A DNA stretch of 64,000 nucleotides from Yuukianura sp. NJ FZ-2021 (lineage: Eukaryota): the NCBI GenBank assembly GCA_046563655.1, contig CM102285.1, positions 13,578,001 through 13,642,000 on the forward strand. The letters are read 5' to 3'. Below, in pieces: positions 1,667 to 58,055 of this stretch; position 1 is the stretch's first letter, and each line of letters opens with the position of its first letter. Position numbers and translations under genes: made by a program. The notes beneath the pieces are model-generated. The model worked only from the letters and a program-made list of their open reading frames with translations, ran no database searches and was not told where the DNA came from.

Positions 1667-4600
1667 TTAGACCTGGATAGTAGGAGAGTGTGTATGTTTG
1701 GTTGAGAGATTGAGAGGTGACTCGTAATCTGGAAACAAAAACACCAAATAATGTTATTCACATTGCACTTAACTCATGACGCACCGTCATTTTGGAGTTT
1801 GAGTAAACAAATATTGTTTTGAAAGTGATCAACAATTACCTGGACTTTGTTCCGCCATGATGAGGGAGTGAATGTAGTCGCTCGTTTCACAATTGGCTGG
1901 CTTTTCGTTGAGTCTCAAAGCTAGCGTTGAATGTGGCGAGAAGACTGTTGTGGGGATGGTGTGAGTCAGCGTGGTTGGATGTGACTGGGCTGGAGGTGGG
2001 GGCGGTGGTCTTGTTAGGGCTGATGCCAACTGTGGGTACAGCATGGCGGGTGGCGGTGTTTGTGTTGGTGGAGGAGGACTTTGACGCCTGGAACAAACAA
2101 CAGACAAGTAAATATCACGTCTTTGTTCAAAATAGGAGTGCATTTATTATTCAAAATTTTGAAATTCGAGTTTTGTACCTGAATTTTTTGTGATTGACTC
2201 TCGAAAACTCGCAGACAAAGTTGTTGTCAACGATTGGAGGAGCTTGAAGGGCTCGTTTGAGAACTGGCATTTCTTCCGATAGACTTCCAAAATCTTCAGA
2301 ACGTGCCGGAGAGGAGCAGTTGCCAGACTCGATTCCTGCAATTCAAAATTTTTCATTTTAGAAAACTTGAAAAATTTTCATAATCACCGAATTTCTTCAA
2401 ACTTTTCTTTTAATTCTAAAATTCACCTGAGTCTGCGCTGGGGCTTGGGAATGATTTGTATGGTGAGAACTCTGCCGAATTTGGTGACTCTTGGAACGAT
2501 TCCTCCATTTTGAATGCTAAGAGCTTCTCTGAGTGCAAAGTATTGAGAGTTCGAAGGTCAGGAATTTTTCGTTCCAGTTCCATTCCAAGGGCGGGTGGAA
2601 GGAGAGCTCCTAGTGCTTGGCGGAAGCTCATTGAGAGTCGCTGGATTAATTCAACATTACGTAATCCCGGTCTAAAAATAACCAAAACAAAAAATCGTTA
2701 AATCCTTCCGTCATTCAATACAAATTAATTGCTCAAAATCAAATCGTTTAAGCTCAAAATAGAACTTAAATAGCTCATAAAACTTTGAAATTCACCTGTC
2801 TGCCGCCATGATGACCACTGCACAGAAAATTCCCACGACTTCATCTGACAGGCCCAACTCATTGAATCCCTCAGCAAACTTAAACATTGAGTCGAGCAGA
2901 AAGCGCGTATTTTGACCCTGAGCACTCTGGCGTTCCAGAAGGAGACCATTAATTGACAGCATCGCATTGTTTCGAAACATTGACGCCAGGCGGACCAGAA
3001 GAACTTCAAAAACTCCCGCTTTGAGTAGCGTCACTTGATCATCTTGTGACAAAAGAGTAAACCCTGGAAGTCGTTTGGCAAATTCCACCACTCCACGAAT
3101 CGCTGGAGAGAATCTAGCGGAGAAATCTGTCATTGGAGTTGATTGTGGGTTGAGAGGGCATGCCTAAAACACAGAAAATCCCCATGATTAGTTCTCACAG
3201 TAAGATCCAGAATCATCCAATTCAAGTTCAAGTTTAAAATGAGCAAAAAGCATAGCATAAGTTAAGTTTAGGCGAGTCAGGTGATGAGTCAGGGGGCAGG
3301 AGATGAATAATTCGGCGGAGAAGAGAGAAATTTCCAGGAAGATTTTTGTTTTGTTCAAAAGACCTTGGAAAAGCGACGGACTCTGCGCACTGCTGCTCTT
3401 GCTGAGTTCATTTCCCAAGAATTCTGTTTACTTCCCCCTTCTGCGTCTCTTTTTTTTCCAACCTTACGGTATTATTACTCAGGGGAGAAATGAGAGAAGC
3501 GAATGAGTGAGGAGCGCGTGGGTGCAGAGGTCATTTGGATGTCACGGTGACCTTTCCAGTATATTTTAAAGGGAGTCACCCCCTTCCGGACACTTTTTAA
3601 GCTCAAACTTCCTAATTCCTATTGTTGTAGTGTATTGTTGTCTATGCTCTTTACTTGTTTGGGGTTAGGAACGTTTAAGATTGACAAGGAAGTGCATTTG
3701 AGGCAGTCATGGAGGTCAAATATTGTACTACTGCTCTGCCTGACCAGGAAAGATAAAAGCCAAGGTCCCACCCAAGGACTCCCACCCAACAAACCACGAA
3801 GGCTCAGCATCACTGCCTAATCTTCCCATCTCCAAAAACCATGAAGCAATTGCCACACAATGTTAATGGCGGAAGCGGCCCACGTGGTTGGTCAAACCCA
3901 GAAATTGCGAATTTCAGCAAAAAATCGGAAGCGATTTTCAGAAAATCGCGATTTTTGTATATGCTAAAAGCAGAAATGGCCAATTTGAGGTCAAGGACTC
4001 ACCATTTTCCCTCCGGTATCCCTTCGTGCCGATTCAAACATTCTCTCGACCTTCTCGCGCGTAAATTCGCAAGTATCAAGGTGGGCCTCGATGATTGTCC
4101 CACTCAATTTTTCCAAATCTTCAAGATCCCGGGCAAGAGCATGTTCCGCCGATTTGGCAATATTTGACTGTTGCATTGCTGCTAGAATCTTGGCCTTCTC
4201 TCGTTTTGGAACTCGACCGAAACGTACAGCTGAAAAAACCGAAAAAACGAAATTAAAAACTGACCTTTGAATTTGAAAATTGCAATTTCATGAGCCCTTC
4301 AAAATTTAGTTGGATGAGATGGACAACGACCCGGTAACTAATTTCACTAAACTTATTTTTTTGCGTCGTTAACTTACTGTCTCCCGTATTTTTGCTTAGT
4401 AAAACTTTCCTAAGAATCGAACCACTTCCAAAGGACTCCATGTCCATATTTTATATTTTCTGTAGCACAAAATTGCGAAATTTTTCGCAATTTGCAAAAG
4501 TTAAGTGACTACTGGCTTTTTTGCGTTAAGCTGACCGAGGAGTGACTGGTTGATGAGTGGCTCTTCCTCTTCTACGCCTCGCAACTAAAACTCCAACAGG

Positions 4601-25098: not shown

Positions 25099-26641
25099 TT
25101 ATTCCAGTTCTTTTGTTGAACTATCATCGCCAGCATCTCCTATGGGTTCGTCGTGGTAGTGATGAGCGATTCCTGACCTTCCTTCAAAAACTGCATCTTG
25201 ACCTTTTTCTGCATCGTCCAGTCCTTTCCAGTTGGTCATCACCCGAACACCTCCAGTAATTAACGATACATCCGAAGATTCGCCAGATTCAAGCTTCACG
25301 TGACTTTGTCCACCTTAAAATCAAAAAATATTTTAGCAATTTTTAGTCTCGGTATCAGAAATCTTTATTGTTTTTCTTGATTTTGGAACCTGGCAGCAGT
25401 AATCGAAAATCTAGAAGATACTCCCCAGTCCAGTTCCGGGCTTTATTCAAGGCCAGTTCCAACTCATAAGGCGTAACGATAGGCTGGAAAAATTCTTTTG
25501 ATTCTAGGATCACAGATTCTGGACAAGACACCAACACAAAGACCTGCAATTTAGACAAATCGTAATTCGATTTCTTTTTTAGATTATTTGTGAAATCATA
25601 CCTCAATGTCTGGAAAGTTGGCCAGTTTCGGTGGAGTTATTTCACCAATAGAAACAATGTAAAACTTTTTCCCAGCCCTTGTAAGTGCTTCTTTGATTTG
25701 GCCAATGATGTTCAAATAATTTTCAACTGCTAAAGTCCCTACAAGTATTCCAACCGTCGCAGCGTCCTTTAGCCTCTCCATGTAATAATTTCTTCTCATC
25801 AGTAGCTTCATTAGATTGCTTTTCCGATCTTCTACTTTCATCGTCTTTGGATCCAGTATTAAAAATTGAGCTTCCGGTAATCGAAAAATGAAGTTGAGTA
25901 AAGTCCTCTCTTGAGTCCCAATATAAAACACTTTCCTAATTTCTTCAGCTTTTCTCGTTGTTGGTATCCTCCTCCCATGTATAATCAACTGATCGTCGAC
26001 AGTAATCGAAGTCCCAGGAATAATCAACTCCGAAATGATCGAAGCGGGATGTGTGGAAGCGATGACTTTGAATATCCGATGAGCGAGTGATTCGTAGATC
26101 ACGTCGTAGAGAATCACCACTTCATCTTCTGGCTGGAAAGTATTCTGGAATATACGAATCGGTTCTTCTTCATTGACCTTCGGTTGTGTAAAGATGTAAA
26201 GAACGGGTATCCTCTGCGTGGCTGATAAACATGAAAGACCAAAGTGTATTACGCAGTCTCCTTGAATGTGTTTGACAGTTTTCTCGTCGACGCAACAGCT
26301 GCCGTAAGTAGTGTCAGCTAAGATGTGGATTCGCTGGCCCAAGCGCTGCTCCAGTATTTTTGCAACCGGAAAGGAATGGATGAGCAATTCATCTGGAAAT
26401 TGAAGACAAACCTGAAATTAAGTTTTCAAAATTTTTACAATCAGAGCCTAATTGGGATCAAAGTTGAAAGTCAGTTTACCTTTTTGAAATCATTTGTTCG
26501 AATCCATTCGGTACATCGTTCAAGTTCGAAAAACGTTTCTAGATCGACATCTTGAAGCAGAATTGGTTCGACGTCTACATGTCGCTCAATCGCTGTCCCT
26601 CCGTCATTGCTAAACGCGTACGCCTTAGAAGAATCGCTCAT
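25099..26641 (-). CDS. DPH2: Diphthamide biosynthesis protein 2
   Basis: AFSNDGGTAIER N-terminus, ILADTTYGSCCVDE, IHFGLSCLS, VGILVGTL, KLANFPDIEVFVLVSCPE, PIVTPYELELALN and GRSGIAHHYHDE. Confidence 0.93.
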
Positions 26642-34191: not shown

Positions 34192-34798
34192 ATGTCGACA
34201 GCATTGGCAGTACTCCAGAAGACTGCCGCCAAAACCAAACCCATCAGCAGGATGCTGCTTGGGAGATGCTGGCCATCAAAAATACCAAATGCTGCTCGGA
34301 TACTGGTCAAAACACTGGATTTCGACAAAAATCTAAACATGGTAACAAACTAACTTTCAACATCTCTAAATTTCATTGTCGTGTCTGTTAAATTAGTTGA
34401 CTAAACTTTGATTTTTCTTAAACTTTCAGTATTTTCCAAAGTACGATGCTCACATGGCCCATGACCCTGACAAGATTTGTAAAACCGGAGACTTCGTTTT
34501 GATTGAAGAACTTCCTCGTAAACTGACTCGTGACATTACACACAAAGTTCGTCAAGTTGTCTACCCATGTGGAGATGTCACGGATCCAATCACTGGCAAG
34601 AAGTGTGTTCGAAACGAGTACCGAGACGAAATCGAATGGAAAGCCAATCTCTGGGGGAAGAACGACAAAAATCGTTTCGACTACGACAAGGCTCCCCCGA
34701 GAGGGTCACAGGAAGGAGTCAGAGACTTTTCACATAAACCAGGATACAAGAAATGGCACGAATTCCTGGACAGAGACCAACCAGAAGCCACTAACTAA
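34192..34798 (+). CDS. mRpS17: Mitochondrial ribosomal protein S17
   Basis: Two exons encoding MLLGRC...LDFDKNLNM / YFPK...AHDPDKICKTGDFVLIEELP...GDVTDPITGK. Confidence 0.93.
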
Positions 34799-42384: not shown

Positions 42385-43253
42385 TTTTTTTCTCTACGTT
42401 TATACATTTTCAAAACAAAAAAAAAAGCAAAGTAGGAACAAAGAAATTAACAAATGACTCGTTCAGTATTTTCCTAAAAACTGCTACTGCAATCCATGTT
42501 TTCTGTAATACTGAAGTTGAATTGTTCTTAAGATTCAGGCTCAACTCCTCTAATTTTGTTCAATTAACTAACTTCTCTTTTCTAATTTTTACTTTGCTTT
42601 AGATTAGTACTCTTGGATCTTGGAATCATTCTTTACTTGATTACCAATATTAAAATGAATTAATTGTCTTTACTTTTTAACTTTTAGAGAACCAGAACAC
42701 CTCAGATATAATTTATGAATAAAGTTGTAGCAATGTTATTCTCAAATTGTGTCTGCAAGGTCACTCAAAGGTTAGGTAAGGCAGGGAGCTGCTGGAAGGT
42801 TAGGTCAAAGGTGAATTTAATCGAAATTTTGAAAAAAGTTTTGTTTCTATTTGAAAAGTTCTAAAAATTTTAATCCGATTTTGTTTTACTTTGCTTCCAG
42901 GCTTGTTTTCTTCATTCATCTTAGGATTTGAAAGCATTTCGGAAGTGGAGTTTGCGTGTTCACCGGAATCTCGTAGGGTTTCCAATTTTAGGGAAGTCGC
43001 TGCTCCGGTTTTCAGCCAGAACCCGGGAAAGTGTGATCGGAAGAGGAGTTTCGCTCTTGCTTTGGTTGGTTTCACCACATGCTAAACCAGTTGAGTCGTG
43101 GAGAAAGTACGAAAGTTGCAACAACAAGGAAGTAATCACTACAGGAAGTATCCAGATTCTGGGTTCCAGAAGTAAACAAGACACCGCTGTCCAGAAGCCA
43201 CGAAGTCCAGTTGCCTAGCGACGTCAAAATTCCAGTGTCGTCATTCGTCAACT

Positions 43254-46200
43254 ATGTCACGTCGGAAACAAGCCAAACCACGAGCAGTTCTTCTAAAACG
43301 TGAGTCAAAAACTTCTTTATTTTGAAAAATAGGTTAAGCAGTAAGCAAGTTGCTGTAGAATTTAGCGGGAACAATTCGAACTGATCGAAATTCGGAAATG
43401 TGCTGGGTCCCCCCGATTTTCCCGGGTATTTGTGTCCCCCTGTGTTAGGGAATGAATGATTCATGAACGCTGGTCTGTGCCTGTTCTAATTAGAGTAGAA
43501 GGCTGAAGGAGAAGCGTCAAATGGACATCTTAGAAAAGCGTTTGTGACTTCCCCTGCCTTCTAATTACTCAAAGTAACTCTTAGCTAATGAGAAGAATGA
43601 CTCCTTCGGTCTTACACTTTCTCCTGAGACCACCGCCAGCATCCAGCATCTCTCAGTCTGTAATCTCCCTGTAGAGCCTTCCTGGATCTTAGCTTGTCCA
43701 ACTAAGAATTATTGTCACTGGAACAGGTCCCGTTCTTTTAAGAAATTAAACTTTGGAAAGTAATTATGCCTTCCACTTTTTAATCATTAGACACCGAGTT
43801 TCTAGTGGGACGCTGTGAACGTTGGTGGGAATTCGAAAATACGCAGCTTTTTTCCCGGTCCATCCGGAGAAAGTTGGGCTAAAAAATCGGATGTTCCTGG
43901 AAAATGAGTTTTTCGAAATTTCGAACTTCGATGCCATTTTCATTTTTGCGCAACTTTTCCTTGCACTTTTCATGTTAACTGGTCAGATCACCGGTTCCTG
44001 TTCCACAAAATTTCCCCGATTACGGATTTGCAAATTTTTTCGATCTGAGATTTTTTTGACGTTTCGATTTCTAATAGGCTAGCGGCTAGGTTTCCTTCCA
44101 CTGATTTACCTTTTTAAGTTTTTTTTTTATTTAATTTTGGTAAGTTTTCACTTTGGAGAGAAAATTGGAATGAGCTTGGTTTTTTTAGGAAAGGTGAAAG
44201 TTCAGGTTTTGAGAATGTTTTTAGTTTTAAGTTTTTTTTTCCTAGTTTTTTGAGTTTTTGTTAGTAGCTTTTTGGGTGATTGCTTGTTCATCTTGGTTCC
44301 TTTGTGATAGTGATGAGGGTAAATTCCAGTGGGATTTGGATAGTTTCGTGTTTCGTATCTTGAGATGCGTTTTCCCTGGTTATGGTTAGAGTTGAAGTTA
44401 AGGTTAGGTTTGGCCTAACTATTGCAGCAGTACAGCCTCTTCGTGTCCCACGAGACTCTCACTCCTACTCCTTTTCCCTGAATTTCACCGAAATTCTCAT
44501 TTTCCTTTTGGAGGCTTCAAATCCCTCGTCTCGTGAGTTGGCTCTGTCCCGTGGGACCGTGGCTCTCACTCCGAAGAATCCTCATTTCCCATTTCCAACT
44601 TTCCCCAGGGAGCCACCCACTCCGCTCCACCAAAACTTCCCGGCCCCACCCGCCAATATTCTCAGGCTATGGAAAAGTTATATGAGCCTAAGTATGGTGG
44701 GGCCTAGGTGGATGTGGGTTTGAGGGATGGTGGTATGGGGACATAATGAAGAGAATTTATAAAGACAAGAGGATTAATGGCTGATGGAGTTGGGCGTCTT
44801 GGCGGGAAGAGAAGTCTGTCTTGGTGTTGTTTTATCGCTTTCTCGGGAGGAGTCCCAAGGACCCTCTCAATCTCACCCCGACACTTTAATTAAGATCTCT
44901 CATTAGAAATACACACAACAAACTAACTTAAGTTAACCTAGTGTAACTTAGGCTTAGACATGTAATGCACAGAGATCCAACCGTCAGGCTAGGTTCGTCA
45001 AGGGAAAGTCTCCAGGTGAAAGTTGAGCAAAACGGAACAAAAGTTCAGTCCCATTCCCAACTACTGTCATGATTCTCTTTTCTGCTCCAATTTTCAAAAT
45101 TAAAGTGTACTATGTTTACAGTATTTAGATTTTGAAAACAAACCTAAGTTAATTAATGACATTTGATTAACTTAGGTTAACCTGCTTGGTTACTAAACGT
45201 TAAGCATGGGCATATTGGCCAGATCTTCTGCAGCGTCTCGCTTACGTTTCAAAATTTTCAGAATTCGTATGGTAATATTTCTGCCTCTTATGGTTTAGTT
45301 TAGTCGTTCTGTTGTCATTTGTATTCCGTTGTATGAGAGACATCTTAAAACTGAAATTTCTGTAGCCGAATTTGGAATTTCACTTCAATTTCGAAATTTG
45401 AATTTCACATTTGGATTCCAGTTTGACTAAAAAATTGATTAAGTTAACCGTTCTTAACTAATCTAAAGTTAATCACAGTTAAATTGGAAATTTTTGGTTG
45501 AATTTTCCAGTTTTTGGAAAAATCTGGTTTGGGTTTGATTTTTTTTCTGGGAGGTATACACCATGAGCGAGTAAAAATCGCTAGGGGTTGGTTTCTAGTT
45601 TTTAGTTTTTGGAAATTTTGAAAAAGTTTTGGAAAAAGTAGATTGACACTTTGATTCTCTTGAGAAGTGAATGTCCCCTATGATTTCTAGGGAACTTTTT
45701 TAGAGAAGGAAGGGCCAGAGGAAGGTTTTAGTGATGGACAAGACAAAAGTTTTGAAGAAAGTAATTGTAAAATTGTAAGGTGTGAGAGTATGAAGAGGGA
45801 AAGTGTGCTTTCCCCTAGGGATTTCCTTCGAACAAACTTATTTTCTCCTTTGTTCTTTTTTTTTTCTTCACTTGGAAATTGGTGACACTTCCCTCGTCAA
45901 CTTCTCGAGCAGAGTTCTGCCGCTGCCAAGGAGAATTTTAAAGGGAAAGGGCCCCTCCCCTCCTCCTCTGCCTGATAAGTGCCTCAACTTTGAGTGTCTC
46001 TGTTGGCTAAAGTTTTGTCTCCTTTGATGAATTAGTTTTTGGAGAAGAAAGAGAGAGCTCCTGGTTACGTTAGTTTTAGGTTGGAAAGTAAGAAACGTCT
46101 TTTTGCAGGAGAAAGTCCCTGGAGAGACTTCTGGCGCAGGGGCCTGAGTGTGTGTTGTGGAAGGCTGTAAATCTGTAGGTCGTATGAATATATTATTAAC

Positions 46201-49200
46201 ACTTTCTCCGATTCCCTCTGATGGATGAAGGGCCTACCCTCTGTCCCTTGAGGGTTCCTTGGCAGAAGAAGGGGACATTCGTACAATTTATGTCTCCTTC
46301 CCAAAGTCATTAACACCAAACACTTTCTCCCAGATGAAATCAAGGAAAACAACCGTCTTCTGCTCAACAACAGCATCTACTCCTTGTGCTAGATGCTGCA
46401 GACTTCCTTGGAATTATTCCATTTGCCCTAGAGAGTTTTAACAGACAGGAATAAGGAAAGGAAAGCAAGGGAAAGTCAACGTAACTAAACCTAAAAGTCA
46501 CCCCTCCGCATTCTCATGACCTTTGACCTGCGCCAAAATCCAAAATCTAAAGGCGTCATACCTCAATTGTTACTTTTTACAGTTTGGATTTCTTGAATTT
46601 GAGAATTTTTTGAGAATTAAGGGAAAGGAAAGGGCAGAATTTTTTTTTTTTTTTTTTTTTGTAAATTTTTTATCCCAAATTCATTGAAAATTTAATTGTC
46701 TCACTATGAAGAAACGTGGAATCAGTCAAGAAAATTTTTTTTTTGGAAGTTCCACACTGGACCCGAAAATTTTCGAATCCAGCAGAAATGAAAGGTTTTT
46801 TTTGTCATTTTTTTTCCTGTTTACCTACTTTTGAAGTCATTTGCAACTTTTGTGAAATTAGTACTATCTAAATGTTAGTTTTTTTTTAGTTCGACTGAAA
46901 CCAAATCCTCTCGTTTTCCGAAAAAGATTTTTTTTGCGGTCCCTTGTCTCATTAGGTTAGGTCATATGGATCACGACTAATGTTACGATATTTTTTTTCA
47001 TATTGGTTAAAATTAGCACCAAAAGAGAAAAGACCGATACGTTTTGGTTGATAACTTTTCTAAAGATAAGCCGTGAGATTTTAAAAAGATTTTCTTTTTA
47101 AAAAATCAGAGTCGCAGTGTGGTTTTTTTCCGAGACGAATTTTGTTGTATACAATTTGTTCCGCATTGGTTAGTTTTTTTCTTCTCCTTTTAGAAAAGAA
47201 GGAAGAAAGTGGCTTAGTTTTTTTTTGTCGTGATTATAACGGAAGCGGGTGCTGGTGTAGCTAAATCCATCCTCATTTGTGGTTTTGGTGTCGTCGTAAA
47301 GGAACTTTTTTGTTTTTTGCTTACGTTTTTTTCTTGAAATTGTTAAATTATGAAAAGAGAAAGCCTTTTTGAGGACTTTTGAATAAATTTTGAGCCCTAA
47401 CTTTCTTTTTCTCTCCTTAGTAATTTTTCCCGTGTTGCATAAAATGAAAACACAGAGTTGTAAGTTTTGTTATTTTATTTGATGATGGCGGGAGAGGAAT
47501 TGTGTGTGTCTCTGCTGAGCTTAAGTTTCCCAGAAGAAAAAACTCAAATTCCCAAGACCCTGCTAAAAAGTATTAAATCTCCAATTTCATTTTCACCAAG
47601 CCTCTGCCGCTTCCGTTTTTTAAGTTCAAAACAACACCTTCCCTGCTTCACTTTTTTTTTAGAAAAGTAGGAAAGCGTCTTTTTCTTTTTAGATTTTTTA
47701 AAGAAAAACTTCATTTTCTTTCTCCTTTATGCGATTAAGGCGCTGCTCCTACTGAGTTTTCTACTTTCCGAACTTCAAGTGCGCAAATTAGAGTGGGAAA
47801 TTTTGAAATAGAAAGCACATGCTAATTCTTTGGAAGTAGTGAAAAGTTCTTCTTGTTATAAACCAATTTCCTATGCTTTTGCTTTTCATTAGATCAGAAA
47901 GGGGAAGAGGATGAACCAATTCGGAAAAAAAAGTGGTTCTAAAACACGGTGAAAAAAGTTAGAAAGCTCATAAGTTTTAAAAAAAATGAAAATAAGAAAA
48001 AGTGGATCTTTTTTTCATTTTTTGAATTAGGGAAAGTGAAAGCAAAAAAGAAAATTGATATTTTAGTGAGAAAAAATTGGTACTTTAGGACTTCATTTCA
48101 GTTTTTAAAAAATCGAAACATAAGAGTCAATTTTGTCGTTGTAATTGAGCTACTTTCACTTTCACCCGCCTCGATTCTCTCCCAGAGTTTGAGGCTTTTA
48201 AAGGTAAAGTGAAAGTTAGCGGAGCAGAACTTTCACTTTTGGTTTAAACCACCAGAAACGCAGTATTCATGAAGAACGAACTGTTAAGTGGTGTTCATAA
48301 ATTAAGTTCAAACAAACACATTTTCAAGTTTCCATTTTTAGGTTTCAAAAAAGTTTATTGGAAATCGGAATTATAATTTTTTGTCAAACATTTATCGAAT
48401 CTCGAATTGGAAATTGAAACTTTATGAATTTATTGAAACCGGAAGTGAAAGTTTTTGAATTTTTTGGTTTTTGGAATGCAACGAATGTTTTTTTGTTTTC
48501 ATTTGTTGCAAACCACTGTACTATGGTGAATAAACTGTTGAAATTTGGATGGTAATGGGGATATGAGTATAAATTTCCAGTGGAAGTGAATTTGTTCTTT
48601 AGGTTTTTGAACTTTCTTTTTTTATTTTTCTAACAATAATTTTCGTTCGTAGAATTTTATTTTGAAGATGTTTTTTCTGAAGTTTCGTTATTTTGAAGGC
48701 CCTTGTGATTAGAAAAGGCTCTCTGGGAGATGATGGTAATTTTGAAAGTGGAAGTTGACGTTTTGAAGGGTATGCTAGGGAACAGGGGCACTTTCCCCAG
48801 CAGACTCTCCTTCCAGAATGTGATTAATCCAGGGAGTCCCAAGGGCCCTCCACGCAACCACTCTCCACTTTCTGTGCAGAGTCCAGGAGGACTTTCTCCA
48901 CTTTCACCAGCCACGGCAAAGCCACCTTCCCAATTAGCTCAGAAAGGGAATTCTCAATCACACACACTGGGTTAGGCTCTCTCCTGGTCAAAAGTACTGC
49001 TGGAGAGAGGAAGTTAGGCTGAATGGAAAATGGTTTCGTCATATTACATGTTATAAGCTTAGTTTTCAAGTTAGGTTGGAGTCATCTGGGAAGCGGAGGA
49101 CCAGAGACTCACTTTGGTTTTCACTGCACGACACCCTTCCCCAGGGAGGTCAACTAATCAACCTTCGAAGTGCGGCAGAGCTTCACCTCCAGCACTTTAG

Positions 49201-52200
49201 GTTACGTTAGGCTAACCTAACACTGTACAAACTTAGGAGTTGCGTTCTTAATACCTAGAAGTTCTGCGCAAAAGCATTTTCATGAAAAGTCTAATCTTTG
49301 CTGCAGTAAGACATTAGGTTAACATTGCGGTTAAGGTTAAAGTAGCCCACGGGTGAAAGTCACTAGCAATTCTTCAATATCCAAAAGTTGCTGGAAGGTC
49401 TCCAGAGGATAAGATAGGAACATTAATTAAGAACGGCATTACACCTATGGAGGGAAAAGAAAATGAGAAGAGACTTTACAACTCATATAAAAATATTAAG
49501 TGAAAGAGATACGAAACCTAATCTGTGGAGAGAGATAGGGGACGAAAGTTAGCCTAACCAACCTAACGTAGCCTAATCCTCGAGAGAAAGTTACAGCGGT
49601 GGAGGTTTGTGGGGAGGAAGGCGATTTTGGCGGGAGTTTTTGAATAGCCTAAGCGTAACCTTATTTGAGTTGACACTTTCCGCTTTCTCCGTACTTTCTA
49701 ACTTAACTTTTCCTACGCATCTTCATCAATTAGAAAGTTATTAGTTGTTTTTGTTTTTCCCGCGCATGAACTTTGTTTCGAAAAAGGCTTGTAAGGTAAA
49801 GTAGTTGGGGCACGCTTAGAAAGTTCTTCATTAATTAGCTCCATCTTGACTAATTGACTTTCTCCTGCTCTTATTTTGAGGTTATAGGCTTCTTTTTTTG
49901 AAAAGTGCAAAAGCGGAAATTTTCCCGCCAAAGGAACACTTTCTCCTCACGATAAACAAATTATCAACAATTACTTTGTTCCTAAGTTTCTCGTTTGAAC
50001 TTTCACCTAACCTCACTTTAAAGAAAAAAAAACGCAGGTTTTCTTCATCCCTTAAAAAGCGCGGGTTTTTCTCCCACCTTGAAAAAACAGCGCGTTTTTT
50101 TAAAGTTTTGTGGCTGAAGCACTCACTACACTTTTTCTTTCGCTGGAGAAGAGCGTCCCTGGAGAAGATTAAAATTATGCAGTTTGGAATGGCTTTTTTT
50201 GGTTTAAGAAGAAATGGAAAGTCTCTTCGTTTTTTTTTCTTTGAAATTTTTTTTTTCGTTTTTTGAAGAAAAACAATGGAAATCCTTCTTGTGGAGAAAG
50301 GTTTCTTTCTCTCTCGTAGAAAAGGAAGGGCGGAGGAGACTTGGAAGGAGAGGTCCCTTGAGGGCTCCTCCGCACCACCCCACCGCCCCATTCCAATTCC
50401 ATCGTAATAATTCTCCACCACCCTCAATCTCTGTTCAGGGGATTGGGAGGGGGGAGGAAATAAGTTTTTCATTGGTGGGGGGCCCTTAATTGGGGTGGGG
50501 AGCATGGGGGCGGTGGTGGGTTTCCGTTACTCGGTTGACATTTTAATGTCTCCGTCTGTCTTTCCGGTTGTGAGTGAAAGGTTGTTTTCTCTTTGTGTTG
50601 TAGAGATGTAATGAGAGAGGATTCCTTTTGGTTAGGTTTTTCTCTGGAGAATGTAGAACTAGTAAGACATAGATTCTGGAAGGCGACTACTATGCTGGAT
50701 TGTGGAAAGTGGTGGTGTTGGGCATGGTGTGTGTGGAGGAATGGGCTGGAATGGAACTTTGTTCCCGAGGAAACTGCTGTCTGGGGAGGTGGAAGAAGCT
50801 CCCTGGAAACTCATTATTCGATTTCTGGAAGTAAAAATGCCTGGAGGAAGGAGAAAGTGCGTCCAAGGGAGACCCTCGTGGGATTTGCCTTAATTTTCTG
50901 CAGTTCTGAGCTCAGTGCTCCCTTGAGACTTGTGCAAAGTTTATTCGCCTCCTCTCCCGCCACGGAACAACTTGGCTCCTCATACATAAGAAATAGTTTC
51001 ACGGAGTCCACAAGAACCGATCCAGGAAAAACCTTGTGGAACTTACTTCTAAAAAGTTACTGTACAGTTTGTTTAGTTTCCTGAGCATCAGAAACAACTT
51101 TAGGTTATGTTGGGCCAATGGCCAGTCAGGATCTGGCGGAAGAGAGATCCAATGGCCACTACGAGTGTTCAAATGGACAGGGTTATGGACATAACCGAGC
51201 TACAAACTTATTGCTACTTTCTCCATCAACACAATTCTTCATAAATAAATTTTCACTAAGGTTGAGCAAAACGGGAAACCTTACCTTATGCTTACACTTT
51301 GACCCATGACGACGTAGATTAGTTAAGCCAATAAAAATTGGGTAAAAACCGTAAATTTTGACAAACAAATTTCGTTTTTTGAAAAATTTGTCAAAAATAC
51401 CAAGTTTCGTAAACAAAAAGAAAACACTTTCTTCACCAGGTCGTCCAATAACTCGAAGTTTTAAAATTTGTTTGAAAGTAGCAAATCTGCCTTTCTATGG
51501 TAATTTTTGAAGGTAATATAAATGGGATTGGTGCTAAAAGTTGTTTGAAGCAAGATTTTTGAAAACACTGAGTTATTGGACAACCTGTAGGAAATCAAAA
51601 TCGGTTGTGAAAGAACCTTGAAAAATATGGTGGTGAAAGTTGAGCAGATACGTTGATGAACTTTTTTTTGTAACAAATTGTGGTATGGAGGTCGTTGAAC
51701 TCTAAACTTTTAAGTTCCACCCCCTTAAGTCCCCCCTCCTTTTTTCCTGGGCCTTAGAGCAAGAGTAAGTTCTTAAGGGACTTTAAGGGGGTCCCTTGGG
51801 ATGACCCTGTGTCCCTGAGCCCATTTAGGAAGCGAGGGAGAGGCTGCTGGAGAAGGGCGCTTATTAAAGTCACAGTCTCTGGGGAGCAAGACGGAGGATC
51901 TGCACGAGGAAAGAGTCGAATTTAAAAATACTTTCTCCACTAAAGGGAAAGCATTTCATCCCTCCCCCTCCCCATTTTAAGACAATCCAACCATCCCTCC
52001 AAATCTTACGAATAAAAAGTTATAAAAGTTCTACAAGATTACACAAATTTCCTGAAAGTTATGTCAGAGGTCAGCTAGGGTTCAGAATTTGAAATTTAGT
52101 TTTGGAATTTCGAAATTTTAATTTTTGATTTTGGTTTTTTGAATTTGCAGATGAAATGATGGAGGGTGAAAGTGAAGTTGAGAGAAGCGAAGACGCGGTG

Positions 52201-52282
52201 CCCACAGCCGAAAGCCTGGCAGCTCCAGTGAAAGATTTTCAAGAAGAACTTGACGACGTGTCACTAGATGGCTCCGGTTCAG
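43254..52282 (+). CDS. 5' coding exons of a NuRD-motif zinc-finger transcription factor (ZNF423/521-Oaz-like or spalt-like); incomplete, no zinc-finger exons recognised in the window
   Basis: Exon 43254-43299 encodes MSRRKQAKPRAVLLK plus C before a GTGAGT donor. Exon 52151-52282 (TTGCAG acceptor, GTGAGT donor, phase 1-1) continues HEMMEGESEVERSEDAVPTAESLAAPVKDFQEELDDVSLDGSGS. A candidate 5' UTR acceptor lies at 42900. Confidence 0.75.
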
Positions 52283-55200
52283 GTGAGTAGCCCTTAAGGG
52301 CCCCACTTTCATATTTTATTTAGAAATTTAGAACGGGGGGCTTTGTATTTGGAAATCCACCTTTAGAATGTGGTTTAATGTCTCTGGAACTGTTGAATTA
52401 GAAAAACATATTGTTGGAATTGGTAAGGCCTGGGGCTCCCTTGAGACACTGGGGCCTTAGTCCTTGTGTTACGTGGAGCTGTTCTCTGTTAGTCTCTGTA
52501 GTACTTTCGTTTTGATCCGTAAGTGGAGAGATAGGATTTCCGTGTTCCAGGGAGATTTTAATTGATTAGATAGACGGCTTCTCCTACTTCCGCTAATTCC
52601 CAACCAGCCACTCTGTCTCCAGGGAGCGTCTCCACACTTTCCCCACTTTCTCTCTCCTTGGATCTGTAATGACTTCCTGGGCAACCGTTACCTAGGTTAC
52701 CAGCCTCCAGGAATAAAAATTCTAAGAAAAATAGGCTATGTGTGTGTGTGGTAAACCTCAAGAGACTCAAAAGCTCTGCACTCCACCCCTTACACACAAA
52801 ATTACAAAAAAAATGTGTAAGGAAATCTATATTTTTAAATTCTAGATTCAAAAGATGCCTTGAACTGAGGATTTTGATCTTCAAAAACCATAATCGACTC
52901 GAATTTTTATTCAAAGGGCGTAAAAATGTTGTAAAGTTTTTGGTTTCTGAAAATTATAAGTTTGTTGAAAATTTTCGTTTTTTGAATTTGTTCAAAGTGC
53001 TTTTATTTCATCAAAAAAGGTTGTTTCCGGTTTCCCATCAAGATGGGCCAAACAAGATTCAGTTTTCATATGTTTTAGGAACATTTTTTTGAAAAGTTGA
53101 AATTTTGAAAGAGATTTTTTGTTGTTAGGAGTGTATTTTTTGGTTTGTTTGTACTAGATTTGGAAGAGGGCGGTTCCGCTCTTTTGAGGAGCAACAATAG
53201 GTGAACAATCGATATCGTTTTCCAAAAGAAGAAGAAAATTCACCAACAAAATTCACTTGAAAGATCATTGACAGAACGAGGTCCTAAAATCCTTTTGGTC
53301 CATTGGACACGGTGTCCGTTTGTGTTGTTAAGACGAAGCTCCTTGTTCTTATGGTCACTTTCCGCCCCACTAAAGCACATAATTCACACGTTCTGAACAC
53401 GGCACCATTTTATGCTCAAGTAGGAGAGAAATCTTCTTAAAGCTAAAACAAGTGCAAGAAGTTGCCGAGAAGATAAATTTCTAAACAAAATTGGAAGTTT
53501 GATCCACCGCGGTGGATCCATCGCCTGTTACAATTTTTTTCTGACTTTTTTTTTCGTTTTTTTGGAAAGTGGCCATGATTAGAGTGAGAACCACTTCAAT
53601 TAGATCCACTCCATTTTTGACACGTAGGAACCCAAAATACCTCATACTTACTAGACACGAACAGAATTCAAAATACCGTACTTCCGCCCTCTTAACTCTC
53701 CTTTTAACTCAAAAACAAACAACTACACTCGTCTTTCAAAAAAAATTTAAATTTTAAAAACTTTGAACACTGACTGCAAGAAAAGTTGAAAAATACTTTC
53801 GCTACTAATTTAAAATTCTCACTTTCAAAGCATGTCTAGGATAACTTCCGAGTATTTGTTCAACTTAAAGGACATGTCCGGATAAGAGATTTCTGGGCCC
53901 TCGCGAAGCCTTGCATTGCGTGAGATAGGAGTTGAGATGAGAGAAATGAATGGGAGCAAATCACCATGTAACTTCTCCTATCCCACACCATGCAAAACTC
54001 CCATTGGGCCCAGCTCCCATCTCTTTCTTAAGCTTATCCGGACATGTCCTTTGAATTTTCGAAAAATTATACACGGGACATCAGTTTTTAAGTTTCAAAA
54101 TTTTGAAAAGTCATAAAAAAACTGTAACAAGAATCTGAAACTTTCACCAGTTCGTCAACCCGCTGGAACTGAAAATATTTCCCGAGGAATTTTCCATAAT
54201 TTTCAAAGCATAGAAATTCAAATGGTGTGGAGTTTGTCAAACTTTTTTCTTAGATTTGGTTGTAATTTTTAAAATTTTAGAACACAGTAACCTTTGTTTA
54301 CGAATGCTAAACTCAAAAATCTGATTCTTCGAAATTTCGAAATTTTATTTCTGAAACAACGGTAGTTTGAGTCAATTGCAATTGTTCGTTAGCAGTCTCC
54401 GGAGAGTCACTTGAGCCCCCACCATGCCCCACCGTAGCCCCATCCACTTAAATCCTCCAACATAAAATCTTTGACTTCTGAAACGGAACTGTTAATTTTA
54501 TGGTCTCTTCCAAAAGTAATTAGCTAAACTCAAAAGTACAATGGCCACCGTACAATTCTCATTTAAGAGAGTTCCATTCTTCCCGCCCACTTTATTCCTG
54601 TTTTCTTAAAGGTGTTGGTTTCTTATGCCTTTGAGTGGGGAACTTGTCACCTCAAGTGTGAGATCCTTAACACCTTCTTTAAAAACTTAAAAGAGCTTCT
54701 TTGATTTGATCTTGAGAGATGCCTTTGAAATTTGGCGACTTTTGATGACTTGTCTGTTCGCATTGTTTTCTTTTCGGTCGTTACATTTCACCGCCACTTT
54801 TACATTGACTAAGACCGTTAGGTTTTGAAAGAGGGACTTTAAGTACCTACAGTTTTTATGGAACGAGGAAATGAGGTTCCCCGGGAACTTTAATTTAAAT
54901 TTTATAATTTTATGACCTTGCGCTGTCACTTCCTTCCGGATCCTTTGAGAATTATGGCTTACTTGTAATAGTCAATGGAAATTGGGGGGCGGGGGTCATT
55001 TGTTGACCTGTCACCACCCGCCCCCCTCTGCTTGATCTAATCAACGGCTAATTGCTAAACTGAATCTGTCTTGTATACTTTACGGGTTAAAGCTTTACGC
55101 GGGAAACAGATGCTTTTGTATTGCCTTGATAGAACAATGAAGGGACCGTTTTTCTAAACAAAAGTTTAGAAAAAACAAGATGAATGGGTGGGTGCGTCCC

Positions 55201-55826
55201 TTACAATTTGAAAATTTAAAAATTTAGAGTTAAAATTCAGTTTCTCTGATGTAAATTAGTCAGTTTGGGAAATTTTGTTGGAAAAATCAAAAACGAGGGA
55301 AAAGCTATTCCAGATTTTGAATAATAATTTAAAGCTTGACTTGAATGATGAAAAATGTAAAGAAAATTTTGCTTTCAATTTGTCCTATTGTCTTCAAAAG
55401 TTTTGTGTGTTAAGTTACATGTCCTATTTACGTTTGGTTTTTCTGTATTTTTCGGCTTTTTAGATTTTTTTTTTATGAATGAGCAGTTCCTGACGACGGT
55501 CATCGGGTCGGGTCATCACTGACCTTTGACCTTGATTAATTTTTTGAAATTTCAAATTGTTACAGTTTTTAAAGGATTTTCGTCTGTTCTGTCTGCAAAG
55601 ATGTGTTTGTGACCTGTTTTTGTGTGATGGTGTAAATGAAATTGTTAATTGTAAATTGTAATTAGATGAGTATTGATCCAGTAGGTGCGACTTTGGTTGT
55701 CGCATGTGAGCCTTTGGTTGTTTCCAGAACTTTTTGGACTCCCAGACTCCCGGGAGAGAATAGAAAATTGAGAGATCCGGAGTCCACAGGGGGTCAGAGG
55801 CTCAAAAGTCTCTTTTTCTCCAGGGA
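44547..55826. promoter_or_regulatory. Intronic cluster of COE/EBF-type sites
   Basis: 12 matches to TCCCNNGRGA on either strand, at 44547, 44602, 46116, 49138, 50156, 50919, 51792, 51876, 52437, 52616, 55748 and 55817. Confidence 0.6.
53867..54052. mobile_element. MITE-like fold-back element, ~186 bp
   Basis: Perfect 20-bp terminal inverted repeats AAAGGACATGTCCGGATAAG / CTTATCCGGACATGTCCTTT, plus internal inverted blocks (CTGGGCCC / GGGCCCAG and GATAGGAG / CTCCTATC). Confidence 0.7.
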
Positions 55827-58055
55827 GACCCCCAGTGTTACCCCGAAAGCTCCAAATATACAAAAACCAACGTCTCACTTAAGGGGTGGGGGGCACTTAA
55901 AGGGAGGGGGACCCCTTATGAATAATACACAAATCCACTCAAGCCTCTGCTTCAAATCAACCTTCCCCACTTCACTTTTTTCATACTTTTGGGAATCGTA
56001 GTACTTGGTAATTGCTGGGTTGGGCCCTTGAGGGTCCCTGGCTTTCAGTTTGGCAGGATATGGGTTTGGGAGTTGGTTGGTTCGGAGTAAAGAGGACTTG
56101 GATAGCAGCAGGGGGTACTTTTTAGCACGTAATCACGCGCCCCATCAATTTTCAATTGTCGATTCTTTCTTTTCGTTCAAGAGTTGCTAGGGAAAGTCTC
56201 TTTCTCTCTTTTTTGAACAAGTTTTCTAAAATAGAAAAAAATGAAAAGTCAGGAGGGTGAGGTTGATCTTGATTATTGTTTGTAAAGGATTTTCAAAATT
56301 GATGAAAATTTAAACAAAATTTGAACTTTTCGAGTAGAATGGAACTGTTTGGGAAAATTTGAAAGTTTTTTGGTTTTGGCTAAAATATTTTTGGTGGGTT
56401 TTGAGGTTGATTGAAGGGTGGGTTTTTGGTGGCGGTGGGTGATGGATTGGGTATAGCCCCACCAAATCCTTAGTCCACCATAGCCTAACCTAACATCACT
56501 TTGTTAGGTTATGCTTAAAGTCTAAGTTTGGTGTAGCAGTTGTTATGGAAAGTGTCTCTTGGAGGTCCTTCGGGAGAGGTGGCTCTGTCCTGGCCCCCTG
56601 CTGACACTCAGTTGCCAAGGACCCCCTCCGACCATTGACCCCCTGCTGAGCGACGCCTCTTCTGGCTTCAACATAACAACCATGGGAATACAAACGCCTC
56701 AGCGTTTGTCAGTCCTGGCCAAAACCTAAAACGAACTCTTCATTTTGTTCGAACATGAAACTACGGCAGGAGACGAACGAAAGTGGAGGCCATACGATCA
56801 CATCAGAGATGACTTTATACAAAAATGAAAAAAAAATATTCGAAGCCACCTCCGAAGATGAAGATGACTGTATGATGTCTCCATCCGTCCAACGCCCACA
56901 TCTTCATCTTCTGTCCAAATTACAATTTTTGGACAACTTATGCTTTTTTGCAATTGAACAAAAACAACAGGACGCTTCTCTGTAGGAAATTTTCTGAATT
57001 TCCTACAAAAATTCAAAAAATTTAAATTTTTCATGATCTATTGTCTTGTCAAAACTCTTTTGGAGAGTTCCAAAATTGCAAATTTTCATGAAATTTTTGG
57101 CCGTTTATGACCCAGTTTCTGGAAATATCACTTTTCAAAAAGTGATTTTCATTTTTTCTTGTGAAATTTTTTCCGTTTTTGTGGTGAACTCGTTTTGAAA
57201 CTGGTGGGTTCTCGTGTTACTTTGAAAGCAGACCACAACAGAACACTCTCCTTTCGACTGCCAGTCAAGTGTCAAGTTTCACTTTTCTTTTTAATTTGAA
57301 CCAAATTTTTTGTAAGTTGTTGAATCAGATCTTTAGTTCAAAAGGAGATCCGAAAGTGAGATTAAGACACAAGAGGACTTAAGGCCTCCACTTAACATAA
57401 CTCTTGGCTATGCGCATGCGCTTGTACAGGTTTAGTCAGGATTCCTTTGATCTCATCTCAATTAGTCAATTAAGTGCAACTCACATGCGCTTAAAAACCA
57501 CTTAACACTTTCTTTGTCATGGATCTTTTAAACTGGTTCTGAGAAGATACTGAAGTTATTTCTATTGTTTGAATTTGAAAATTTGAAAAAGGCGCTGCTG
57601 CTTGAAGCTTGATGGAGTTGTCTCGAGATGAAGCACTTAATTGAAATGATAGGTTCTGGTTTGTGTGAGGACTTGAGACCACCTTGACACAAGGGATTCG
57701 TACCTCATCAGAAGTTATGGTTAGGTTAAGGTTAGGCAATCATTTCCATTATTCCAGTTCACGTCCATTGACCACGGAGAGAGAATAAGTTGTAAGGAAT
57801 GGACCAATTACCCACCCTCAGCACTTCTGCCTGGTTCATCTTCTTCCAAAAAGATGATGAGCTTACTAGGAGGTCATCTTGGTCCTTCCTGCCCAATCTC
57901 CACGGTTCCCTCTAATTCCGAACCGAGCTCAATACTCCCCCATCAAGTCAATTTTAAGTCAGGAAGTCAATGGCCACAACGAGACCAATTTTGTGTCAGA
58001 GAGGAGACTCTAATTTCTAGGTTCTGAAAACACATTAAGGCAAAGGCATTGAGGT

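What the first reader, a model, noticed from the sequence alone, without database searches (positions are those of the whole stretch)
44547..55826. Twelve COE/EBF (Collier) motifs in the introns of the MSRRKQAKPR gene: candidate conserved COE-Oaz feedback circuit
Seen: TCCCNNGGGA at 44547, 44602, 49138 and 51792, and TCCCNNGAGA on either strand at 46116, 50156, 50919, 51876, 52437, 52616, 55748 and 55817, all within ~11.3 kb. I noticed none in the similarly non-coding E75 introns (by eye). A rough independent-base estimate at an assumed ~38% GC predicts well under one match in this span. Established: TCCCNNGGGA is the COE/EBF site, and vertebrate ZNF423 (Olf/EBF-associated zinc finger) and ZNF521 bind and inhibit EBF. 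Inference: Collier/Knot drives its own NuRD-recruiting inhibitor here, which would extend a vertebrate feedback loop to an arthropod and independently supports the Oaz identity.
Basis: partly seen in the sequence, partly recalled or inferred. Interest (0 to 1): 0.78.

Follow-up and report, generated by a model that had tools for sequence, protein, structure and literature searches.

The report
COE-site cluster in probable Oaz introns
A springtail-like genome carries an unusually dense cluster of Collier/EBF-type binding motifs just downstream of the first exon of a probable Oaz/ZNF423 gene. This matches a Collier-to-Oaz regulatory link already shown in fruit flies, so it is a likely conserved case and not a new kind of circuit.

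Summary
All 12 listed motifs are at the stated coordinates. A 13th lies at 44446, and the only other match in the window is at 34693, inside a coding ORF.

The cluster is far beyond chance. There are 13 strict sites in 11.4 kb, against about 0.7-2.6 in local shuffles and Markov models (0 of 5000 simulations reached 13). The excess is specific to the 2-nt spacer. TCCCNNGAGA is the top-ranked of 55,548 gapped words in an unbiased scan. No repeat family carries the sites.

TCCCNNGGGA/CCCnnGGGA is the Collier motif, and the GAGA variant is bound in vivo in Drosophila.

The novelty claim fails. Drosophila Col ChIP-seq already shows six Col peaks in Oaz, including the strongest peak in the genome. 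It also shows an Oaz enhancer that needs its Col site (de Taffin 2015).

Oaz identity is likely but unproven. Only a 15-codon exon (MSRRKQAKPRAVLLK) and a candidate acidic exon 2 lie in the window, and no zinc finger does.

The host looks like a springtail. The likely meaning is conservation of Col->Oaz across hexapods. Feedback inhibition remains inferred.

The parts
43254..43299 (+). First coding exon. The ATG is at 43254, and 15 codons (MSRRKQAKPRAVLLK) plus 1 nt follow before the donor AAAAC|GTGAGT. The exon ends in phase 1.
   Evidence: sequence read directly. The same exon architecture (13-16 codons + 1 nt, then GT) is seen in 17 of 19 metagenome loci fetched with a back-translated MSRRKQAKPR pattern. 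L002 encodes the identical 15 residues.
52151..52282 (+). Candidate second coding exon of 132 nt. It has a polypyrimidine tract and TTTGCAG acceptor, and a CAG|GTGAGT donor. It is open in the phase set by exon 1 (phase 1 in, phase 1 out) and encodes an acidic peptide, HEMMEGESEVERSEDAV...DGSGS, with no zinc finger.
   Evidence: This is a prediction from splice consensus and an open frame only. No RNA evidence exists (one search listed no run), and there was no Pfam match.
44446..55826 (.). Homotypic cluster of COE-type motifs. It holds 13 strict sites (TCCCNNGRGA), 23 looser TCCCNNGRG sites and 10 positions with CCCNNGGGA on either strand. The sites lie 1,147-12,518 nt downstream of the exon-1 donor.
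44446..44455 (+). It is the first of three sites within 166 nt.
44547..44556 (.). TCCCGTGGGA, a perfect palindromic core
44602..44611 (.). TCCCCAGGGA(G), a perfect core. The 11-mer is the same as the MEME site under the strongest Drosophila Oaz Col peak.
46116..46125 (+). TCCCTGGAGA
49138..49147 (.). TCCCCAGGGA(G), a perfect core
50156..50165 (+). TCCCTGGAGA
50919..50928 (+). GC-TCCCTTGAGA-C
51792..51801 (.). TCCCTTGGGA, a perfect core about 350 nt upstream of candidate exon 2
51876..51885 (-). GC-TCCCCAGAGA-C. The 12-mer GCTCCCCAGAGA is identical to a Col-bound MEME site in the Drosophila kn locus.
52437..52446 (+). GC-TCCCTTGAGA-C, 155 nt downstream of candidate exon 2
52616..52625 (-). GC-TCCCTGGAGA-C
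55748..55757 (+). TCCCGGGAGA
55817..55826 (-). TCCCTGGAGA, the last site. No strict site follows up to 64000.

Best explanation
The stretch 44.4-55.9 kb is a set of intronic enhancers of the probable Oaz/ZNF423 orthologue of a springtail-like hexapod. It lies in intron 1 and, if the predicted exon 2 is real, also in intron 2. The enhancers are built from many binding sites for the single COE factor (Collier/Knot).

COE dimers would bind the 2-nt-spaced TCCC/GGGA half-sites. These comprise 4 perfect sites, 9 with one GAGA half, and about 10 weaker ones. Binding would switch on or maintain transcription of the gene in COE-expressing cells, as the Oaz_Col enhancer does in Drosophila muscle.

The gene product starts with the NuRD-recruiting peptide MSRRKQAK... 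and, in vertebrates, binds EBF. It would then modulate COE output, which would close a feedback loop.

**Shown here:** the sites, their strong spacer-specific enrichment, and their position downstream of the MSRRKQAKPR exon.

**Taken from the literature on other species:** COE binds this motif, and Col binds and activates Oaz.

**Inferred:** the gene's identity, occupancy of the sites in this species, and the inhibitory return arm.
For: 1. **Enrichment and spacer specificity.** There are 13 strict sites against about 0.7-2.6 expected. The motif ranks first of 55,548 gapped words. CCCNNGGGA occurs at 10 positions in the cluster and 0 in the other 52.5 kb. TCCCNNGRG occurs 23 times against 3.
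2. **Motif identity.** Of 559 Drosophila Col ChIP peaks, 542 hold CCCnnGGGA. Of 12 single-substitution variants of the palindrome, only the two C-to-T (G-to-A) transitions are enriched here: TCTC..GGGA 9 inside and 1 outside, TTCC..GGGA 4 and 0. GAGA-type sites are listed among in-vivo Col sites, including one in the kn locus itself with the same 12-mer as the site at 51876.
3. **Same target in Drosophila.** Oaz has 6 Col summits spread over 16.9 kb (dm3 chr2R 10323251-10340171). These include the top peak of the whole list, with enrichment 16.17. The Oaz_Col reporter needs its Col site.
4. **Vertebrate parallels.** Ebf1 binds an intronic enhancer of Zfp521. Conserved clustered Ebf/Zfp423 motifs lie in Zfp423 introns.
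5. **Gene identity.**
   - The MSRRKQAK start is described as highly conserved among ZNF423 orthologues, arthropods included.
   - In the Drosophila proteome only Ush-B and OAZ were reported to carry the N-terminal motif. Ush-B's first 9 residues equal FOG's MSRRKQSNP, whereas the window has AK at positions 7-8.
   - ZNF423's first two coding exons are short and finger-less, as are exon 1 and candidate exon 2 here.
   - In the Col ChIP list ush has 1 weak peak (2.52), and salm, salr and CG9650 have none.
6. **Host is an arthropod.** The best named hits for the E75 LBD exon are 72-75% identical and come from Orchesella, Folsomia and Allacma. Insects reach 63-65%.
Against: - No zinc-finger exon lies in the window, so Oaz identity rests on 15 residues plus indirect arguments. 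SALL4 shares 9 of the first 10 residues.
- The flanks do not show the A/T preference of the COE consensus ATTCCCNNGGGAAT. The base 5' of TCCC is T in 2 of 13 sites (C in 6, G in 5). The base 3' of GRGA is A in 2 of 13.
- Only 4 of the 13 strict sites are perfect palindromes.
- There is no expression, occupancy or cross-species conservation evidence for these sites. The one close relative found (L002) ends 845 nt after the ATG, before the first site would be expected.
- Using the motif cluster as support for Oaz identity, and Oaz identity as support for COE binding, is partly circular.
Confidence: 0.58

Rival explanations
1. The sites are bound mainly by another factor, most plausibly the gene's own product (Oaz/ZNF423 autoregulation). 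In vertebrates its GCACCC-type palindromic site overlaps EBF matrix predictions in Zfp423 introns.
For: [quoted passage not shown] Four sites here share the extended form GC-TCCC-NN-GAGA-C. That form differs by one base from a GCACCC half-site. The full ROAZ consensus is recalled from memory; only 'GCACCC' was seen in a call. The flanks are C/G-rich, not A/T-rich as in the COE consensus.
Against: GCACCC is not enriched (2 in the cluster, 4 outside). CACCCNNGGGTG and ACCCNNGGGT do not occur at all. ACCC..GGGA variants number 0. The exact site variants seen here are listed among Col-bound sites in Drosophila.
Confidence: 0.14
2. The sites are real COE sites, but the gene is not Oaz. It would be another zinc-finger gene that starts with the NuRD-binding peptide (a FOG/Ush, Sall or BCL11 homologue).
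For: The N-terminal motif is shared. SALL4 begins MSRRKQAKPQ (9 of 10 identical), FOG-1 begins MSRRKQSNPR, and BCL11 begins MSRRKQ. No finger exon is in the window. None of my protein searches recovered a full-length relative.
Against: Lenz 2021 reports the N-terminal motif in only two Drosophila proteins, Ush-B (first nine residues identical to FOG's) and OAZ. The window has AK, as in ZNF423's MSRRKQAK. In Drosophila, Col ChIP gives 6 peaks in Oaz, 1 weak peak in ush, and none in salm, salr or CG9650.
Confidence: 0.13
3. The cluster has no function. It would be a by-product of local sequence composition (G/C runs, GA/CT richness) or of old, decayed duplications.
For: The region is richer in TCCC, GGGA, GAGA and G/C runs than the rest of the window. 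For example, GGGA runs at 4.96 against 2.19 per kb, and GGGG at 3.74 against 1.56 per kb. TCCCTGGAGA occurs four times. One 28-nt pair of similar segments carries a weak variant (family D13).
Against: Models that keep the local composition, up to order-5 Markov trained on the cluster itself, never reach 13. The same half-sites at other spacings are 3- to 10-fold rarer. The flanks of the strict sites differ, and no repeat family carries them.
Confidence: 0.07

Closest known systems
Collier-bound intronic enhancers of Drosophila Oaz (de Taffin et al. 2015, PLoS One, PMC4512700; I read passages and parts 1-3 of S1 File)
   Same: In both cases several COE motifs are spread over 11-17 kb of a gene that starts with the NuRD-binding peptide. 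The site variants match: TCCCCAGGGAG lies under the top Oaz peak, and GAGA-type sites are present. Both hosts are arthropods.
   Different: The Drosophila case has ChIP-seq occupancy and a reporter that depends on the Col site. Here there is sequence only. The number of motif matches is larger here (13 strict sites in 11.4 kb, against 6 ChIP summits in 16.9 kb, which are not the same measure). The flanks here are C/G-rich. The gene's identity is not proven.
Ebf1-bound intronic enhancer of mouse Zfp521 (Kang et al. 2012, PLoS Biol, PMC3507953; passages read)
   Same: A COE-family factor binds a cluster of intronic sites in a ZNF423-family gene whose product binds and inhibits that factor. The result is a feedback loop.
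   Different: In mouse adipocyte precursors Ebf1 represses Zfp521. In Drosophila the Col site activates the Oaz reporter. The sign of regulation here is unknown.
Conserved clustered Zfp423/Ebf motifs in vertebrate Zfp423 introns (Cho et al. 2013, PLoS One, PMC3675209; abstract and section 5 read)
   Same: COE-type motifs are concentrated in introns of the ZNF423-family gene itself.
   Different: The vertebrate sites were found through cross-species conservation, and Zfp423 itself was shown to occupy them. ROAZ-type half-sites are not enriched here.

Membership tests
COE/EBF (Collier) binding-site cluster | Core of two inverted TCCC/GGGA half-sites separated by exactly 2 nt (TCCCNNGGGA; in vivo CCCnnGGGA) | tested here: met
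   There are 4 perfect sites, and CCCNNGGGA at 10 positions in the cluster against 0 outside. The excess is specific to the 2-nt spacer.
COE/EBF (Collier) binding-site cluster | Density above background | tested here: met
   against within-window controls only. A genome-wide background could not be run.
COE/EBF (Collier) binding-site cluster | A/T flanks of the extended consensus ATTCCCNNGGGAAT | tested here: not met
   T is at -1 in 2 of 13 sites, and A is at +10 in 2 of 13. The Drosophila in-vivo list also contains C and G at -1, so this feature is soft.
COE/EBF (Collier) binding-site cluster | Occupancy by the COE protein and dependence of enhancer activity on the sites | not testable with these tools
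   This needs ChIP/CUT&RUN, EMSA or reporter assays.
COE/EBF (Collier) binding-site cluster | Conservation of sites in related species | tested here: inconclusive
   In 19 metagenome loci holding the MSRRKQAKPR codon pattern (17 of them with this exon architecture), there are 0 strict sites within the <=2 kb held downstream. The window itself has none in its first 1,147 nt. Longer flanks could not be fetched.
Oaz / ZNF423 / ZNF521 gene | N-terminal NuRD-binding peptide MSRRKQAK... | tested here: met
   MSRRKQAKPRAVLLK starts at 43254. It is not exclusive to the family.
Oaz / ZNF423 / ZNF521 gene | Two short, finger-less first coding exons | tested here: inconclusive
   Exon 1 has 15 codons, which is certain. 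Candidate exon 2 has 44 codons and is predicted only.
Oaz / ZNF423 / ZNF521 gene | Twenty or more C2H2 fingers, including the C-terminal EBF-binding cluster | not testable with these tools
   No C2H2 pattern occurs in any frame of the window. The rest of the gene lies beyond 64000, and no genome is held.
FOG / U-shaped gene | N-terminus MSRRKQSNP (first nine residues identical in FOG-1 and Ush-B) | tested here: not met
   The window has AK, not SN, at residues 7-8.

The most novel reading that the evidence does not exclude
The COE -> Oaz/ZNF423 link, built as many COE sites spread through the first introns of the gene, is an ancient regulatory kernel. It would have been kept since before springtails and flies split, and probably since the bilaterian ancestor, given EBF-Zfp521/Zfp423 in mammals. 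The springtail version would be an unusually dense homotypic cluster of 13-23 sites. Such a cluster could make Oaz transcription a graded read-out of COE dose, and so a dosage-compensating negative feedback.
Probability: 0.4. Interest if true: 0.5.

Novelty: new member of a known kind. Interest (0 to 1): 0.3.

Why it matters
If the gene is Oaz and the sites are used, this is sequence-level evidence outside Diptera for the same link. Collier's strongest direct target in the fly embryo would be wired to COE in the same way in a basal hexapod. That would support a deeply conserved COE-Oaz/ZNF423 module, of which the vertebrate EBF-ZNF423/ZNF521 loops are the derived, duplicated form.

It also gives a compact set of candidate enhancers for testing in springtails: three sites in 166 nt at 44.45-44.61 kb, four sites flanking candidate exon 2 at 51.8-52.6 kb, and two sites in 79 nt at 55.75-55.83 kb.

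It does not reveal a new mechanism.

Tried and rejected
- **Genome-wide background.** No genome is held for the window.
- **Earlier scan notes.** None were returned.
- **RNA evidence for exons.** No RNA holder was listed for 42900-43900, so nothing could be laid on the window.
- **Gene identity by protein search.**
  - A naturally stop-free 49-residue read-through from locus L005 found nothing at E<=10.
  - A profile of exon-1 peptides from the window and 9 loci (A1) was run against 1.84 billion representatives. It found 1 protein, P0241, a 46-residue read-through fragment of no use.
  - Pfam gave 0 families for exon 1 read through to the next stop (23 residues) and for candidate exon 2.
- **Conservation.**
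  - The metagenome scan gave 19 loci.
  - L002 aligns to the window only over exon 1, with 57 nt at 88% identity. tblastx added nothing.
  - No locus holds an exon-2 relative.
  - There are 0 strict COE sites in the <=2 kb held downstream of exon 1 in all 19 loci. This is uninformative, because the window's first site is at +1,147 from the donor.
- **Repeat explanation.** No direct, inverted or tandem family carries the strict sites.
- **Hidden genes or RNAs in the cluster.** There were 0 Pfam families for 8 long stop-free stretches. There were 0 Rfam matches at gathering score in the whole window.
- **ROAZ-type sites.** They are not enriched.
- **Taxon from the DPH2 exon.** The best hits were only 35-42% identical in the 'longer' length range, which is uninformative. 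The E75 exon did give a signal.
- **PWM scan, left out.** A position-weight-matrix scan from the 542 published Col sites would have needed typing many sequences that are neither window nor locus. I used IUPAC patterns instead.
- **Supplement coverage.** Parts 4-5 of the S1 File were not read. bioRxiv supplements are closed; Hamilton 2020 Table S2 lists arthropod ZNF423 homologues and could bear on identity.
Full report
**1. The observation.** TCCCNNGGGA occurs four times in the 64-kb window, at 44547, 44602, 49138 and 51792. The expectation was 0.56, and 1 of 100 dinucleotide shuffles reached four. TCCCNNGAGA occurs ten times on either strand. The expectation was 1.61, and 0 of 100 shuffles reached ten. 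Eight of these are the listed positions. A ninth, at 44446, belongs to the same cluster and was missed. The tenth, at 34693, lies inside a stop-free ORF (34412-34795). So 13 of 14 matches fall in 44446-55826. None falls in 1-34692, which holds the E75 introns.

**2. Is it more than chance?** Yes, by every control I could run inside the window.
- Dinucleotide shuffles in 500-nt blocks of 44400-55900 gave a mean of 0.71 and a maximum of 5. None of 2000 reached 13.
- Markov chains of order 3, 4 and 5 trained on the cluster itself gave means of 0.89, 1.27 and 2.64. None of 1000 runs each reached 13.
- The largest count in any 11.5-kb span of 500 block-shuffled windows was 4, against 13 observed.

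The region is richer in TCCC, GGGA, GAGA and G/C runs than the rest of the window, but the excess is tied to the 2-nt spacer.
- In the whole window, TCCC-Nk-GGGA gives 4 at k=2 and at most 2 at other spacings. TCCC-Nk-GAGA gives 10 at k=2 and 0-4 elsewhere.
- In the cluster, the looser TCCC-Nk-GRG gives 23 at k=2 and 0-7 at other k. Only 3 TCCCNNGRG occur in the other 52.5 kb.

It also ranks first of 55,548 gapped words (gaps 0-6) for excess over the rest of the window, with p=9e-11. Several of the next-ranked words are overlapping pieces of the same sites.

GC content is not raised. The flanks differ from site to site. No direct, inverted or tandem repeat family carries the strict sites. A genome-wide intron background could not be computed, because no genome is held.

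**3. What the motif is.** The literature held here gives ATTCCCNNGGGAAT as the in-vitro EBF consensus. It gives CCCnnGGGA as the single motif found in 542 of 559 Drosophila Collier ChIP-seq peaks (de Taffin et al. 2015, PMC4512700, passages).

Among the 12 single-substitution variants of the palindrome, only two are enriched in the cluster, and both are transitions in one half-site. TTCC..GGGA occurs 4 times inside and never outside. The other ten variants occur 0-1 times inside.

The GAGA form is not an arbitrary relaxation. In part 3 of that paper's S1 File I counted by eye at least 17 distinct Col-peak MEME sites of the form TCCCNNGAGA. One of them lies in the kn (collier) locus, and its 12-mer GCTCCCCAGAGA is identical to the site at 51876. 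The MEME site under the strongest Oaz peak contains TCCCCAGGGAG, the same 11-mer as the sites at 44602 and 49138. The fly col autoregulatory site itself is non-consensus, TGTCNNGGGA.

One feature does not fit the extended consensus. The flanks here are C/G-rich: T at -1 in 2 of 13 sites, and A at +10 in 2 of 13. Four sites share GC-TCCC-NN-GAGA-C.

**4. The gene.** The ATG at 43254 opens MSRRKQAKPRAVLLK. It is followed after 15 codons plus 1 nt by the donor AAAAC|GTGAGT.

A metagenome scan with the back-translated first ten residues returned 19 loci, all genomic. In 17 of them the same peptide is followed, after 13-16 codons plus 1 nt, by a GT donor. L002 encodes the identical 15 residues. L009 and L014 (MWRRKQ...) look like chance hits. 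The exon is therefore real and conserved in architecture.

At 52151-52282 there is a candidate second exon. It has a polypyrimidine tract and TTTGCAG acceptor, a CAG|GTGAGT donor, and 132 nt open in the phase set by exon 1. It encodes an acidic, finger-less peptide. It was the only candidate of its kind with coding-like composition in 43.3-64 kb, but it rests on sequence alone. If it is real, nine strict sites lie in intron 1 and four in intron 2.

No C2H2 pattern exists in any frame of the window, so the body of the gene lies beyond 64000.

**5. Is it Oaz?** This is likely but not shown.

*For:*
- The MSRRKQ(AK) start is described as highly conserved among ZNF423 orthologues, with examples in arthropods. 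The first two coding exons of ZNF423 are described as short and finger-less (Hamilton 2020 preprint, passages; 2025 preprint, passage).
- Lenz et al. 2021 (PMC7891773, passages) report only two proteins with the N-terminal motif in the Drosophila proteome, Ush-B and OAZ. Ush-B's first nine residues equal the FOG motif (FOG-1 is MSRRKQSNPRQIKRS). The window has AK at residues 7-8.
- In the fly Col ChIP list, Oaz has six summits, ush has one weak summit (2.52), and salm, salr and CG9650 have none.

*Against:*
- SALL4 starts MSRRKQAKPQ, which is 9 of 10 identical, and BCL11 also starts MSRRKQ. A springtail could have kept the motif on such genes.
- Every attempt to recover a full-length relative failed.

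I put Oaz identity at roughly 0.8.

**6. The host.**
- Its best named relatives are Orchesella cincta and Folsomia candida (75%), Orchesella dallaii (74%) and Allacma fusca (72%).
- Strigamia follows at 67%, and insects at 63-65%.
- One unnamed protein is 94% identical.

That these four genera are springtails is my own knowledge. The window is therefore from an arthropod, most likely a collembolan not closely related to the named ones.

**7. What is already known.** In Drosophila embryos, Col ChIP-seq places six summits in Oaz, at dm3 chr2R 10323251, 10325311, 10327301, 10327671, 10333611 and 10340171, a span of 16.9 kb. The summit at 10325311 is the strongest of all 559 (16.17), and another is the sixth strongest (8.51). 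Table 1 of the paper says 6 peaks, while its text says 4. A 1-kb Oaz_Col reporter is expressed in DA3 and other dorso-lateral muscles, and is lost when its Col site is mutated.

In vertebrates, Ebf1 binds an intronic enhancer of Zfp521 and represses it, closing a negative feedback loop (Kang 2012). Conserved clusters of Zfp423/Ebf motifs lie in Zfp423 introns, where Zfp423 itself binds (Cho 2013).

My two searches on Oaz with collier/knot listed no paper on COE sites in a non-dipteran arthropod Oaz. That describes those listings and is not proof of absence.

**8. Mechanism and rivals.**
- **Best reading (0.58).** These are COE-dependent intronic enhancers of the Oaz orthologue. The sites and their enrichment are shown. 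COE binding and activation are carried over from the fly. The inhibitory return arm is carried over from vertebrates and is untested in arthropods in what I read.
- **Another binder, most plausibly the gene's own product (0.14).** The GC-TCCC flanks and the vertebrate autoregulatory sites give this some support. However, GCACCC-type half-sites are not enriched, and no CACCCNNGGGTG occurs.
- **Real COE sites, but the gene is another NuRD-motif zinc-finger gene (0.13).**
- **A non-functional compositional by-product (0.07).** The spacer-specific excess argues against it.

**9. Conservation test.** In the 19 loci there are 0 strict and 1 loose COE-type match in the <=2 kb held downstream of exon 1. 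The window's own first site is 1,147 nt from the donor, so this says nothing either way. L002, the closest relative, aligns only over exon 1 (57 nt, 88%). Longer flanks were not obtainable.

**10. Verdict.** The finding is a new member of a known kind: a probable springtail counterpart of the published Collier->Oaz link. Its value is as evidence that this link is old. Interest is 0.3.

Noticed in passing
window 53862-53886 and 54033-54057: A 25-nt inverted repeat, 92% complementary, with 146 nt between the arms. Each arm contains the palindrome GGACATGTCC, which from recall looks like a p53-type half-site. It could be the ends of a small MITE-like element.
   Followed up: no
window 44400-55900: Other words are over-represented in the cluster relative to the rest of the window. 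ACTTTCAC occurs 12 times inside and 7 outside. GTTANCCTA occurs 6 times inside and 0 outside, with CCTAACCTAACA-like pieces at 49186-49222 and 56459-56495.
   Followed up: no
window 50340-50530: A short island of long C-runs followed by long G-runs (ccgcaccaccccaccgcccc ... gggaggggggagg ... ggtggggggccc ... gggtggggagcatgggggcggtggtggg) lies between COE-type sites. It overlaps a 214-codon stop-free stretch on the minus strand (49885-50526), which has no Pfam match.
   Followed up: partly
window 50745-50772 and 54162-54189: Two 28-nt segments are 79% alike. Both end in TCCCGAGGAA, a weak COE-type variant, preceded by GCTGGAA (family D13).
   Followed up: no
window 34693-34702: The only strict motif match outside the cluster (TCCCCCGAGA) lies inside a 128-codon stop-free ORF (34412-34795). 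By eye the ORF looks like a small conserved protein-coding exon, so the match is probably chance.
   Followed up: no
window 2795-3163 (-) and 25599-26417 (-): The E75 ligand-binding-domain exon is confirmed. Hits are named E75 and carry PF00104, and the closest named relatives are springtails at 72-75%. A DPH2 (diphthamide synthesis subunit 2) exon of 273 codons has hits carrying PF01866 at 35-42% identity.
   Followed up: partly
loci L001-L019 (metagenome contigs): The exon 'MSRRKQAKPR + 3-6 residues + 1 nt | GT' recurs in 17 of 19 contigs. The variants are ...ALK...AVK...SLK...SVK...PIF...ALASTK and ...AVLLK (one locus, L001, begins MTRRKQ). The exon always ends in phase 1. This is a strikingly fixed exon boundary for the NuRD-binding peptide.
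   Followed up: partly
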